Assembly (NCBI GenBank): GCA_964016885.1
Contig: OZ024752.1
Span: forward strand, 35,030,001-35,094,000
DNA: 64,000 nt
Source of the DNA: Eledone cirrhosa
Lineage: Eukaryota
Direction: 5' to 3'
Made by a program: the position numbers and the translations under genes. Numbering within the stretch: the stretch's first letter is position 1; each line of letters starts with the position of its first letter. The notes beneath the pieces are model-generated. The model was not told the origin of the DNA, ran no database searches, and was given only the letters and a program-made list of their open reading frames with translations. Shown in pieces: positions 761 through 60,758 of this stretch.

Positions 761-1555
761 GGAGTGTAATGCGGAGTTACTGTAGGTTCACCCAGGTGAG
801 CACTCGATGTTTAGGTTCACAACTGTATCGAGGTGTAGAGCTAGACAGAGTGTAATATATATATATATGAAAGACGTAAAATAAGAAAATTTTAAAAATT
901 AAAAATCAACTTACTTACTAAAATTTTCACTCCAACTAATTAGTTTCTGTATGGGGATAAATATAGTTACATAATATAACTATAGAGAATTCCATGCGTC
1001 ATCAGGGAGACTATTCTCAGCTAAGTTCCCAGGCGATGCGTGGACACTAGGAACTCATATAAAAATAATAATTCAGTGGATGGAATAAAGCTAGCGTGGA
1101 CTAAATTCCGGAGCACTGAAAAAGTTCACTGCCTCTGGTCAGTGGCAGATTCTAAAGAATCAATCACGTGACACTGAGGTTAATCAGTTAGGAGCGGGGT
1201 GGTATTATGACAAGAGCCTACTACTACCATGAATCAGCAGTAAATTTTGGCAAGTTTTGCTCAACAAATAATTTGGAGATAAATATAGAGAATTAGTACA
1301 TTTACCAACATATGTGTACAGATGTTCACCTATGCTAGCAAATATATATGTTATGTCTTAGTACCTTTGTGGTTCTATGCAGGGGGATGCAGAACAATTA
1401 TATGAAAGACGTAAAAATTTTCTTATTTTACGTCTTTCATATAATTCTTCTGCATCCCCCTGCATAGAACCACAAAGGTACTAAGACATAACATATATAT
1501 TTCCTAGCATAGGTGAACATCTGTACACATATGTTGGTAAATGTACTAATTCTCT
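756..1555 (-). mobile_element. Non-coding Penelope-like/retrozyme-like element with hammerhead ribozyme and fold-back
   Basis: Begins in (TA)n; hammerhead at 930-1009; 867-1170 homologous to 56320-56611; long hairpin at 1287-1555. Confidence 0.65.
930..1009 (-). ncRNA. Type I hammerhead ribozyme (long stem II, palindromic stem III)
   Basis: Minus strand: ctcc-CTGATGA-cgcatgg...ccataca-GAAAC-taatta-GTT-ggag. Confidence 0.75.
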
Positions 1556-38030: not shown

Positions 38031-39204
38031 CAGGGGTTCTCAACTCTTTTTTCGCTGTGGACCACCAAAATAAGTAATCTTTTCCTGTGGACCACCTAAA
38101 CTTTTAAATCTTTTGTAATAGAACTGCTACAGTAGATGTTTTGTAATAGAACTGCTACAGTAGATGTTTTTTTACAATGAATTAGAAAATGCTATTATCA
38201 TGAATTAGAAAATGCTATTATCATGTTTTTTTACAATGAATTAGAAAATGCTATTATCATGAATTAGAAAATGCTATTATCATGTCGCAGTGCCTAAATT
38301 TTTTCCTGTGGACCACCTAAACTTTTAAATCTTTTGTAATAGAACTGCTACAGTAGATGTTTTGTAATAGAACTGCTACAGTAGATGTTTTGTAATAGAA
38401 CTGCTACAGTAGATGTTTTGTAATAGAACTGCATCAGTAGATGTTTTTTTACAATGAATTAGAAAATGCTATTATCATGTCGCAGTGCCTAAAAATCTAC
38501 GCAAATAAACAGCTGAAGTCGTAATTATGCAAAGAATAAGAACAGCGCTTTAAGTCAAATCAGACTCAGAGGCTCCCGCGTCTTGCGACACATGAGGCAA
38601 TCATAGTGTTCCACCGCGTTCGGTCAGCAGCCAGTTGCACAGCGTCCCGCCATTGTCTGTTTGTCGCTCGCAGGTCCCTCTCAACTGTCTGGCGCCAGTT
38701 CATTTTGGGTCGCCCTCTCCGTCTGCTTCCCCGCGGGCTCCATTTAAGTACTTGGTTCGCCACTCTCTCCGGGGGAAGTCTCAAAGCGTGCCCAAACCAG
38801 CCCAGGCGTCGCTTGCAGATGGCAGAAGAGACTAGCTGCTGGTTGGTGCGGTTCCTGACTTCCTCGTTTGTTACATGGTCACTCCATTTAATCCCCAGGA
38901 TCTTTCGCAGACACCTGGAATCGAATGCGTCCAACTTCTTCTCTTGGTTGGTCTTAAGGTGCCGTGTTTCACTTCCGTACAAGAGTATGGACAGCACGTT
39001 GTTGTAGAATCTCATCTTTGTTTTGAGGGTGAACTTCCCGCTCTTCCAGATCTTGACAAGCTGGTTAAATGCTGCCGAAGCCGTTCCCATTAAGTCAAAT
39101 GCATGGATCAAAAAAGAATTTGCTATTGAAAATTTTCTGTGGACCACCTGAATTTTCCTGTGGACCACTAGTGGTCCACATGGACCAGAGGTTCAGAACC
39201 TCTG
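38031..39204. mobile_element. hAT (Charlie-like) non-autonomous DNA transposon with nested RTE
   Basis: 8-bp TSD ATCTAAGC at 38023-38030 and 39205-39212; TIRs CAGGGGTTCTCAAC / GTTCAGAACCTCTG; subterminal gtggaccac repeats. Confidence 0.88.
38561..39089 (-). pseudogene. 5'-truncated RTE-clade LINE (ORF C-terminus)
   Basis: Open frame ...KTKMRFYNNVLSILLYGSET...RCLRKILGIKWSDHVTNEEV...RRLGWFGHALR...RRRGRPKMNW...AADRTRW; 11-bp TSD ttaagtcaaat at 38550-38560 and 39090-39100. Confidence 0.9.
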
Positions 39205-44160: not shown

Positions 44161-44210
<50 letters not shown>

Positions 44211-44212
<2 letters not shown>

Positions 44213-44416
44213 CGAAGGAAATGTGGTAAGGAACCAGGTGGACCATAACGCACCAAAGTACTCAATACTTAGGGTAGTAGAGTGGGTAATAGGAACAAGT
44301 AAGACCCCGACGGCTGAGCTCAAGCCGTTTCGACGGCTAATTCTGTACTGAAATCATTTCAGTACAGAATTAGCCGTCGAAACGGCTTGAGCTCAGCCGT
44401 CAGGGTCTTACTTGTT

Positions 44417-44476
<60 letters not shown>

Positions 44477-44660
44477 AACGAGTAGGACCCCGACGGCTGA
44501 GTTCAAGCCGTTTCGACGGCTAATTCCGTCCAGAATTAGCCGTCGCAACGGCTTGAACTCAGCCGTCGGGGTCCTACTCGTTCCTATTACCCACTCTACT
44601 ACCCTAAGTATTGAGTACTTTGGTGCGTTATGGTCCATCTGGTTCCTTACCACATTTCCT
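44211..44660. mobile_element. Two TA-embedded fold-back elements with hammerhead 3' half and ~75-nt tail
   Basis: Palindromes 44289-44421 and 44472-44588 contain GAAAC-ggct-tgagctc-agcc-GTC-ggggtc; tail attacccactctac...ccttcgtt. Confidence 0.75.
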
Positions 44661-47256: not shown

Positions 47257-47380
47257 GATATATAACGAAGGAAGTGTGGTAAGGAACCAGGTGGACCACA
47301 ACGCACCAGAGTACTCAATACTATGGGTAGTAGAGTGGGTAATAGGAAAAATGTCAGGACCCTGAACATTTCAGAAATAG

Positions 47381-47417
<37 letters not shown>

Positions 47418-47586
47418 AAAAGAGTCAGGACCCCAACGGCTGAGCTCCGGCCGTTTCGGCAGCTATTTCTGAAATGTTCAGGGTCCTGACATTTTTCCTA
47501 TTACCCACTCTACTACCCATAGTATTGAGTACTCTGGTGCGTTGTGGTCCACCTGGTTCCTTACCACACTTCCTTCGTTATATATC

Positions 47587-48374: not shown

Positions 48375-49046
48375 TAATGGGTTCTTATATAGGTACAAGG
48401 CCAACAATTTTGGGGGAGGGGAAAGTCGATTTAATCGACCCCAGTGCGAGACTGGTACTTTATTTTATCTACCCCGTAAGGACCATAATAATGTTTCTAC
48501 TTTTAGCACAAGGCCAGCAATTACCCCAGTGCATTACTGGTACTTTATTTTATCGACCCCCGTAAGGATGAAAGGCAAAGTTAACTTCGGCGGGATTTGA
48601 ACTCAGAACGAAAAGGGCCGTAACTCTATACTCCAAAGCATGTCGTCCGACCCTCTACCGACACTGCCATAGTAATTGTTTCTACTTTTGGCTCAAGGCC
48701 AGCAATTAATCAGTACATTACTGGTACTTTATTTTATCGACCCCGTAAGGATGAAAGGCAAAGTTAACCTCGGCGGGATTTGAACTCAGATCATAAAGGG
48801 CCGTAACTCGATGCTGCAAAGCATGCTGTCCGACTCTCTACCGATACTGCCAATTTAAATAATTGTTTCTACTTTAGGCACAAGGCCAGCAATTACCCAG
48901 TGCATTACTGGTACTTTATTTTATCGACCCCGTAAGGATGAAAGGCAAAGTCAACCTCGGCGGGATTTGAATTCAGATCGTAAAGGGACGTAACTATGCT
49001 GGAAAGCATGGCGTCCGACCCTCTACCGATACTGCCAATCCACTGC
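48375..49046 (-). mobile_element. Head-to-tail Deu/Nin SINE array (3 full + 1 partial)
   Basis: Repeated consensus. Confidence 0.85.
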
Positions 49047-56030: not shown

Positions 56031-56300
<270 letters not shown>

Positions 56301-56372
56301 ATATATATATATATATATATGAGAGACGTAAAATAAGAAAATTATAAAATTAACTTACTTGCTAAAATATCA

Positions 56373-56452
56373 CTTCCAACTAATTAGTTTCTGGAATGGA
56401 ATAAATATATTTTCCGAAGAAAATACAGAGAATCATTCCGTCGTCAGGGAAG
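56373..56452 (-). ncRNA. Type I hammerhead ribozyme (homolog of 930-1009)
   Basis: Minus strand: cttcc-CTGACGA-c-ggaatg...gtattttc-TTCG-gaaaatat...cattcc-a-GAAAC-taatta-GTT-ggaag. Confidence 0.85.
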
Positions 56453-56614
56453 ACTATTCTCATCTAAGTATCCAGGCAAAGCGTGGACTCTGGAAACTTA
56501 TTAAAAAATAATTCAGTGGATAGAAAATAGCAAAGCGTGGACTGAATTCCTAGCCATTGAGAAAATCACTGCCTCTGCGTCGGTGGCAAATTCAAAAAGA
56601 ATCAATCACGTATA

Positions 56615-57463: not shown

Positions 57464-58480
57464 AATGGTTTCTGATTTAGGCACAATTGGGGGGGGGGGT
57501 GATTAAATCGACCCCAGTATGTTACTGGTACTTTATTTTATCGAACCCCGTAATGATGAAAGGCAAAGCTAGCCTCGGCGGCATTTGAACTCAGAATTTG
57601 AACTCAGAACGTAAATGTCCCTAACTCTATGCCGCTAAGCATAATATCCTGCACTCTACCGATTCTGCCAATTTGTAAGATAATTGTTTCTACTTTTGGC
57701 ACAAAGCCAGCAATAACCCCCCCCCCACACACACACACACACACACCTCAGTGCATTACTGGTATTTTATTTTATCGAACCCCGTAAGGATGAAAGGCAA
57801 AGTTAAACTCGGCGGCATTTGAACTCAGACTGTAAAGGGACGTAACTATGCTGGAAAGCATGGCGTCTGACTCTCTGCCGATACTGCCAATCCACCGCCC
57901 TTTGTAAGATAATTGTTTCTACTTTTTGACACAAGGCCAGCAATTATCCCAGTACATTACTGGTACTTTATTTTATCGACCCCGTAAGGATTAAAGGCAA
58001 AGTTAAGCTCGGCGGCATTTAAACTCAGACTGTAAAGGGCCGTAACTCTGTGCTGCAAAGCATGGCGTCCGACCCTCTACCGATACTGCCAATAAGATAA
58101 TTGTTTCTACTTTTGGCACAAGGCCAGCAATTAATCCTCCAGTGCATTACTGGTATTTTATTTTATTGACCCCGTAAGGATTAAAGGCAAAGTTAACCTC
58201 GGCGGGATTTGAACTCAGACTGTAAAGGGCCGTAACTCTGTGCTGCAAAGCATGGCGTCCGACCCTCTACCGATACTGCCAATCCAGATCCAGATAATTG
58301 TTTCTACTATTGGCACAAGGCCAGAAATTACCCAGTACATTACTGGTACTTTATTTTATCGACCCCGTAAGGATGAAAGGCAAAGTTAACCTCGGCGGGA
58401 TTTGAACTCAGAATGGCAAGGGCCGTAACTCTATGCGTCAAAGCATGGCGTCCGACCCTCTACCGATACTGCCAATCCTG
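57464..58480 (-). mobile_element. Head-to-tail array of five Deu/Nin SINEs
   Basis: Five consecutive units, mostly joined by '(a)agataattgtttctac'. Confidence 0.88.
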
Positions 58481-58647
58481 ATCCAGATAATGACAGTTAT
58501 TCATTTCTCTGAAAAATTTCTCTCTTTTTAAACAATAATCGTAAATATCGTTCGCCATGTTTGATTGGGCGTCGATGAATTGTGTTGCTTCGTAGTAAAC
58601 AAAGATCTCCTTCTCTTATAGCTACTACATAACAGACATTGATCAAT

Positions 58648-60664: not shown

Positions 60665-60707
<43 letters not shown>

Positions 60708-60758
60708 AACCAGTAAGACCCCGACGGCTGAGCTCAAGCCGTTTCGGCGGCTAATTCT

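What the first reader, a model, noticed from the sequence alone, without database searches (positions are those of the whole stretch)
56373..56452. Covariation between two hammerhead homologs 55 kb apart, with an atypical extended stem II
Seen: 867-1170 and 56320-56611 are diverged homologs that keep the fold through compensatory change. Stem I is ctcc/ggag vs cttcc/ggaag. The stem II base is gcatgg/ccatac vs ggaatg/cattcc. The distal hairpin is tatagttat/gtaactata vs gtattttc-TTCG-gaaaatat (a cUUCGg tetraloop). Both have a C.A mismatch where the canonical G10.1-C11.1 pair sits, an internal loop in stem II, and a GUU cleavage triplet. Inference: selection on RNA structure in the parent elements, possibly an undescribed hammerhead variant.
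Basis: partly seen in the sequence, partly recalled or inferred. Interest (0 to 1): 0.75.

Follow-up and report, generated by a model that had tools for sequence, protein, structure and literature searches.

The report
Knotted hammerhead in Penelope-type jumping repeat
Both sites are copies of a 510-570-base non-coding jumping repeat whose hammerhead (a predicted self-cutting RNA, over 10,000 copies in this genome) keeps its base pairing across subfamilies; the odd C-A mismatch already appears in a published table, but the long second arm likely pairs with an upstream strand in a knot shared with sister families, and cutting is untested.

Summary
Both motifs are type I hammerheads in a non-coding tandem repeat (unit 508-571 nt) inserted into (TA)n. 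The genome has 10,762 matches and 0 control matches. Covariation survives a larger test. On internal branches, 31 of 36 helix changes keep pairing, against 39 of 102 on terminal branches (p=6e-7). The C.A is a family trait (9,950 copies), but it is not new. The same C.A followed by G-C is listed for PLE-X1_cBra in Craig 2021, File S2, and an invariant G-C pair sits one step out. The leader GAGAAU (56461-56456) is complementary to the 5' strand of the helix II internal loop, and this pairing co-varies across sister families (67 of 77 Watson-Crick pairs against 55 shuffled). That points to a pseudoknot holding helices I and II together. Insertions have two fixed 3' ends and head-to-head arms, which is the Penelope-like 'tail' signature. 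No RNA run, cleavage assay or autonomous partner was found. Verdict: a new variant of a known kind (non-LTR retrozyme hammerhead).

The parts
56317..56611 (-). 5'-truncated single-arm copy of the repeat (young subfamily B, unit about 522 nt), 3' end about 60 nt after the predicted cut, in (TA)n
56373..56452 (-). type I hammerhead: stem I, CUGACGA, extended helix II, GAAAC, helix III, GUU; predicted cut 56378/56377
56456..56461 (-). leader GAGAAU, 5' strand of the inferred pseudoknot
56428..56433 (-). AUUCUC, 5' strand of the helix II internal loop, partner of the leader
56392..56440 (-). extended helix II: C(56440).A(56392), 6-bp IIa starting with an invariant G-C, internal loop, distal hairpin 56427-56406
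56399..56405 (-). conserved unpaired 3' loop strand UUUAUUC (U, U, A and C in at least 184 of 186 copies at four positions); possible third strand, untested
56378..56389 (-). 12-nt palindrome AACUAAUUAGUU (helix III); unstable as a hairpin, stable as a two-copy duplex
864..1416 (-). first arm of a two-armed insertion of subfamily A (about one full unit), 3' end about 70 nt after the cut
1414..1555 (+). second, inverted arm, 3' end about 178 nt after the cut
930..1018 (-). hammerhead of copy 1 with its leader (1018-1013); predicted cut 934/933; private U-to-C change in helix IIa

Best explanation
The two sites are copies of a high-copy non-coding tandem repeat, likely a non-LTR retrozyme moved by Penelope-like proteins, whose type I hammerhead has a long helix II under selection for pairing and is predicted to be braced by a pseudoknot between the upstream leader and the helix II internal loop. 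Shown from sequence: the motif, copy number, 508-571-nt units, two fixed 3' ends, head-to-head arms, pair-keeping change in parent lineages and leader-loop complementarity across families. Inferred: multimeric RNA is transcribed; two neighbouring copies pair their palindromic helix III and cut after GUU; the pseudoknot holds helices I and II side by side and offsets the weak C.A or A.A at the base of helix II; unit-length or circular RNA is then bound by a Penelope-like RT/GIY-YIG protein that nicks (TA)n and starts copying at two internal sites.
For: Copy number and control. Tandem periods, and 75 of 93 terminal copies ending 50-79 or 160-199 nt after the cut at a microsatellite. 34 of 49 head-to-head insertions pair one end of each class, as for the two RT start sites of a Penelope element (PMC11167929). 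Covariation (covariation score 0.297 against 0.134 shuffled and at most 0.089 slid). Pseudoknot: 88 of the first 100 listed GAAAA-leader copies have TTTTC (counted by eye), whereas only 294 GAGAA-leader copies in a family of about 10,000 do. The same switch recurs in sister families, and four of seven columns change on both sides. The leader-loop duplex beats the other two partners tested in 12 of 13 representatives and ties in 1. Spacing is near constant (6-8 nt on each side). Helix III hairpin +1.5 against self-duplex -9.0 kcal/mol. Penelope-like RT plus GIY-YIG elements are abundant in the genome.
Against: No cleavage or RNA data. Within the focal family the pseudoknot has one double change on the tree and is not significant alone (E=46); on internal branches its five core pairs show 1 keeping and 2 breaking changes. 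The inner pair of the pseudoknot is unpaired in 12 of 24 representatives. The cross-family test uses representatives I chose and motif anchors, so the rows are not independent. RNAfold places the leader-loop helix in a non-hammerhead fold for copy 1. Enrichment of 5' ends at the cut is weak (10 against 5.2 expected of 52, p=0.03, and other windows are as high). No coding element with this hammerhead at its end was found in 299 loci. In PMC11167929, hammerhead mutants did not affect insertion in vitro.
Confidence: 0.68

Rival explanations
1. The leader-loop helix is an alternative, inhibitory fold (a switch) that keeps a single copy from cutting until a partner copy or a protein refolds it.
For: The minimum-energy fold of copy 1 forms the leader-loop helix instead of helices I and IIa. 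The Anolis Penelope hammerhead cuts only with protein (PMC11167929). Many arms are longer than one unit, so uncut or circular templates are used.
Against: The helix is compatible with helices I and II, the spacing from the core is near constant across families, and helices between stems I and II speed up cleavage in other hammerheads (PMC3088659).
Confidence: 0.14
2. These are pLTR remnants of an autonomous Penelope-like element rather than a non-autonomous retrozyme.
For: The 3' ends, inversions and (TA)n targets are those of Penelope-like elements. Hydra-clade hammerheads have a similar ACU...AGU helix III and a mismatched base of helix II.
Against: The units are head-to-tail repeats of 508-571 nt. 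In 299 loci no Penelope-like ORF leads into this hammerhead, although only about 50 GIY-YIG loci were examined.
Confidence: 0.08
3. The fold is kept for binding by the Penelope protein or for circle stability, and cleavage is negligible.
For: Mismatches at 10.1/11.1 lower activity in the mutational work cited by Perreault. Cleavage was dispensable in vitro for one element. The cut-site signal in 5' ends is weak.
Against: The catalytic core and GUU are intact in most copies chosen by similarity alone, across subfamilies about 20% apart.
Confidence: 0.08
4. The compensations reflect a few inherited changes or DNA hairpin repair, not selection on RNA.
For: There are few independent events, and only one column passes E<0.05.
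Against: All four Watson-Crick pairs occur at one position. The internal against terminal contrast has p=6e-7. The circular sense strand folds better than the antisense (-121 against -99 kcal/mol; z=-3.9 against 30 shuffles). G.U intermediates occur.
Confidence: 0.02

Closest known systems
Metazoan non-LTR retrozymes (Cervera and de la Pena 2020, PMC7229834, passages and section 14 read; bioRxiv 10.64898/2026.07.22.740005, part 1 of 5 read)
   Same: Non-coding tandem units, one type I hammerhead per unit, short palindromic helix III, co-occurrence with Penelope-like elements; axolotl HHR_Amex2 has a U.U at the base of helix II.
   Different: Unit 508-571 nt against about 170-400 nt; helix II about 50 nt with an internal loop and distal hairpin; expression and circles not shown here.
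PLE hammerheads of Craig et al. 2021, File S2 (PMC8557442, supplement part 2 read): PLE-X1_cBra and the Hydra clade
   Same: PLE-X1_cBra has the same core ending in C, then G-C, a 6-bp stem II and A before GAA. The Hydra clade has U.U or U.C at that place, an ACU...AGU helix III and (TA)n targets.
   Different: Their helix II ends in a 3-10-nt loop, without an internal loop or leader pairing in the table, and they are coding elements.
[quoted passage not shown]
   Same: A long helix with an internal loop capped by an extra hairpin, whose 5' strand pairs Watson-Crick with the other arm.
   Different: Mirror image: there the internal loop is in helix I and pairs with loop 2 (type III); here it is in helix II and pairs with the 5' leader of helix I (type I).
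Pseudoknot-braced hammerheads (Perreault et al. 2011, PMC3088659, passages and section 8 read)
   Same: A helix between stems I and II replaces the loop-loop contact (about 40% of their examples); a weak helix II and a U10.1.U11.1 start are tolerated.
   Different: The passages read describe a terminal loop pairing with a tail; Figure 2B was not seen.
PK hammerhead (PMC11300833) and type-SGC hammerheads (PMC10085705), passages read
   Same: Hammerhead core with pseudoknots.
   Different: In the PK form the pseudoknot replaces helix II, and SGC has a scrambled strand order. Here the order is ordinary type I and helix II is kept.

Membership tests
Type I hammerhead ribozyme | CUGANGA, GAAA and NUH core in type I order | tested here: met
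Type I hammerhead ribozyme | helices I, II and III with pair-keeping variation | tested here: met
   helix III is invariant and so uninformative
Type I hammerhead ribozyme | G10.1-C11.1 directly next to the core | tested here: not met
   C.A (9,950 copies) or A.A intervenes and G-C follows; a tolerated, published deviation
Type I hammerhead ribozyme | tertiary contact between helices I and II | tested here: inconclusive
   leader-loop helix supported across families, not significant within the family
Type I hammerhead ribozyme | site-specific self-cleavage | not testable with these tools
   only an indirect, weak signal from 5' ends
Type I hammerhead ribozyme | match to an Rfam hammerhead model | tested here: not met
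   none among the hits listed
Non-LTR retrozyme | head-to-tail units, each with a type I hammerhead | tested here: met
   53 of 238 copies are followed by the next unit at 508-571 nt
Non-LTR retrozyme | non-coding | tested here: met
   no stop-free frame of 90 aa or more lies within either window copy apart from microsatellite-driven frames that touch the ends
Non-LTR retrozyme | unit of about 170-400 nt | tested here: not met
   508-571 nt; a described range, not a mechanistic criterion
Non-LTR retrozyme | expressed as linear and circular unit-length RNA | not testable with these tools
   no RNA holder listed
Penelope-like mobilisation | two alternative 3' ends (tail), 5' truncation, inverted arm, microsatellite target | tested here: met
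   the tail is about 117 nt against the usual 30-40
Penelope-like mobilisation | sequence shared with an autonomous partner | tested here: inconclusive
   none in 50 GIY-YIG loci out of 10,597 candidates
ENE-type triple helix | pyrimidine-rich internal loop between two stems plus a purine tract; third strand co-varies | tested here: inconclusive
   the layout is present and the 3' strand conserved, but no third-strand covariation

The most novel reading that the evidence does not exclude
A superfamily of animal retrozyme hammerheads replaces the usual loop-loop contact with an ENE-like triple helix. The purine leader (GARAA) pairs with one strand of the helix II internal loop and is clamped by the conserved U-rich other strand. 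This brace frees the normally invariant 10.1-11.1 pair, which is G-C, A-U, G.U, U.U, A.G, C.A or A.A in different families.
Probability: 0.2. Interest if true: 0.75.

Novelty: new variant of a known kind. Interest (0 to 1): 0.48.

Why it matters
If the pseudoknot is real, it is a hammerhead tertiary design that I did not find in the papers I could read. It comes as a natural mutational series: one genome, several families, seven different states at the 10.1/11.1 position. That makes it directly testable how a peripheral brace relaxes a core constraint. More than 10,000 copies were not matched by Rfam in the stretches tested, so retrozyme counts from standard descriptors may be too low. The two fixed 3' ends extend the Penelope internal-priming model to a non-coding passenger.

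Tried and rejected
Rfam scans gave no hammerhead hit among those listed. A C.A to A.C 'swap' seen in 3 copies was rejected: they are decayed members of an A.A subfamily (66 of the first 100 of 455 listed, counted by eye). Pairing of the leader with the 3' loop strand or with the downstream stem I extension was weaker in nearly all representatives. The first anchoring of the loop mis-registered the poly-U subfamilies and was replaced (174 of 195 kept, and the anchors favour intact motifs). The first arm map had false ends at library borders and was redone. A short-helix A.A hammerhead near Penelope ORFs (L244, L245) lies outside their pLTRs. The hits upstream of hammerheads were mostly to non-Penelope query frames, or lay far off or beyond a TA run, and were not followed further. 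No RNA holder was listed. Runs X1-X3 are contigs of unknown library and showed no splice-type joint, which is no evidence on expression. Lunse et al. on small Penelope hammerhead variants (title seen only) and the supplement of PMC7229834 could not be read, and either may show this architecture. Literature searches.

Full report
Observation. The regions 867-1170 and 56320-56611 align at 79%. Rfam gave no hammerhead among the hits listed, and folding energy alone is not unusual. The case therefore rests on comparison.

What the element is. Each region is one copy of a repeat: 1,926 and 4,203 first-look candidates, with the best 40 scored at 98-100% and 95-97% identity. A pattern for the core with this helix III finds 10,762 matches and 0 for the reversed control. 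Units run head to tail with periods of 508-571 nt (53 of 238 copies are followed by the next unit). Among 120 pattern-chosen copies, 27 run on into the next unit. Of the other 93, 75 end at a microsatellite either 50-79 or 160-199 nt after the predicted cut. Of 49 head-to-head insertions in 112 loci, 34 join one arm of each class. The window's 864-1555 insertion is of this kind, and 56317-56611 is a single truncated arm. Inverted 5' copies, a tail and microsatellite targets are described for Penelope-like elements (PMC8557442, passages), and the tail matches two internal RT start sites (PMC11167929, parts 1-2 of 4). The genome holds many RT plus GIY-YIG elements, but I found none ending in this hammerhead.

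Covariation. From 326 matches in the loci, 195 unique copies had an intact upstream flank and 174 could be anchored (21 dropped). On a tree of these, changes at paired columns of stem I, IIa and IIb kept pairing in 31 of 36 cases on internal branches (3 or more tips), but in 39 of 102 on branches with 1 or 2 tips (Fisher p=6e-7; helix IIa alone 7 of 7 against 8 of 28, p=0.001). Parent lineages therefore kept the fold, and inserted copies decay. A home-made R-scape-like test over 1,275 column pairs gave E=0.003 for IIa pair 2, which shows all four Watson-Crick pairs, and E=0.06 for pair 5. No other pair was significant. On 24 hand-picked representatives, 94% of cells pair and 11 of 24 pairs change on both sides; slid controls give 38-50%.

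The C.A. 9,950 of 10,762 matches have C-G...C-A. 455 have another base in place of C; about two thirds of the first 100 listed are an A.A subfamily and the rest mostly T. Only 3 differ on both sides. The next pair is G-C in 24 of 24 representatives. It can be read as a mismatched 10.1.11.1 or as one extra base on each side of a kept G-C, and sequence cannot decide between these. An extra base after A9 is usual in Penelope hammerheads (PMC4209133, parts 1-2 of 4). U.U is described (PMC3088659 section 8; PMC7229834 passage). File S2 of PMC8557442 lists the same C.A then G-C for PLE-X1_cBra, and U.U or U.C for Hydra-clade elements. In this genome, sister families show G-C, A-U, G.U, A.G and U.U there, and a coding Penelope-like family has U.U in a U3-A8 core. 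The mismatch is a known, tolerated state.

The internal loop. Its 5' strand (AUUCUC, 56433-56428) is complementary to the leader GAGAAU (56461-56456). 88 of the first 100 of 787 copies with a GAAAA leader have UUUUC (counted by eye), against 294 copies in all with GAGAA and UUUUC, a G.U state. Within the family this is one event on the tree and is not significant (E=46). A looser pattern (3,267 matches, 499 control) exposed sister families with different sequences but the same layout. In 13 representatives (1 of 14 dropped, no leader anchor), giving 11 distinct leader-loop pairs, 67 of 77 positions are Watson-Crick, against 55.1 +/- 2.8 with shuffled partners (p=1e-5). Four of seven columns change on both sides, and the distances to the core are 6-8 nt. 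The rows are related and were chosen by me, so the p-value overstates the evidence. One rarer family (L257) shows no such pairing. With helices I and II side by side, the two strands would be antiparallel (inference from the known fold). Helices between stems I and II are known (PMC3088659), and a mirror-image design occurs in type III hammerheads of HDV-like RNAs (PMC7936874). I did not find this type I form in searches or 81, but could not read one key paper or one supplement. The other loop strand is conserved and U-rich, which recalls ENE triple helices (search listing only). It shows no covariation, so this is speculation.

Mechanism. Helix III is a 12-nt palindrome, unstable alone (+1.5) and stable between two copies (-9.0 kcal/mol), which fits the dimer cleavage described for such motifs. 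The circular unit folds well on the sense strand (z=-3.9 against 30 shuffles). 5' ends of second arms fall in the 30 nt after the cut 10 times against 5.2 expected (p=0.03), but other windows are as enriched, so this is weak. I commit to transcription of multimers, dimer-dependent and pseudoknot-assisted cleavage, then copying by a Penelope-like protein from two internal sites into (TA)n. Every RNA-level step is inferred.

Verdict. A real, selected structure in a new, large member of a known class. The mismatch is not new; the leader-to-loop brace probably is a new variant. Interest 0.48.

Noticed in passing
window 55752 (-) and 56787 (-): Two short hammerhead-like motifs with an extra A after A9 and a 4-bp helix II, in other (TA)n-flanked repeats next to the finding.
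   Followed up: partly
window 44210-44540, 47377-47470, 56183-56300, 60665-60757: Another (TA)n-inserted repeat with inverted arms and a GAAAC...GUC segment; strand order of any hammerhead not analysed.
   Followed up: no
window 42662 (-) and 46011 (-): Further CUGANGA...GAAA motifs: a recurrent family with an extra U and GAAAG, and a possible long helix II starting with U.U.
   Followed up: no
L027, L252, L256, L269, L282, L225:5700-6250: Sister retrozyme-like families (units about 460-485 nt where tandem) with extended helix II and leader-loop complementarity; L292 and neighbouring places on C1 hold arrays of up to 9 units.
   Followed up: partly
L158, L244:3858, L245-L249: Separate non-coding family with a short helix II flanked by A.A and a 3-bp helix III; several copies duplicate the GAAAC-helix III segment.
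   Followed up: partly
L195, L205, L239, L240; L224, L225, L233, L235: Coding Penelope-like elements (RT, Cys motif, C-terminal GIY-YIG) carry U3-A8 core hammerhead-like motifs downstream, one family with U.U at the base of helix II.
   Followed up: partly
window 56350-56368 (-), just after the cut: AGUAAGUAAGU resembles splice donors and is kept in sister families; no spliced form could be tested.
   Followed up: no
window 38566-39192 (-): Fragment resembling the C-terminal part of a LINE reverse transcriptase (by eye).
   Followed up: no
window 48483-49037, 57749-58491 and dispersed: Abundant SINE-like repeat of about 190 nt, in tandem arrays and dispersed copies.
   Followed up: no
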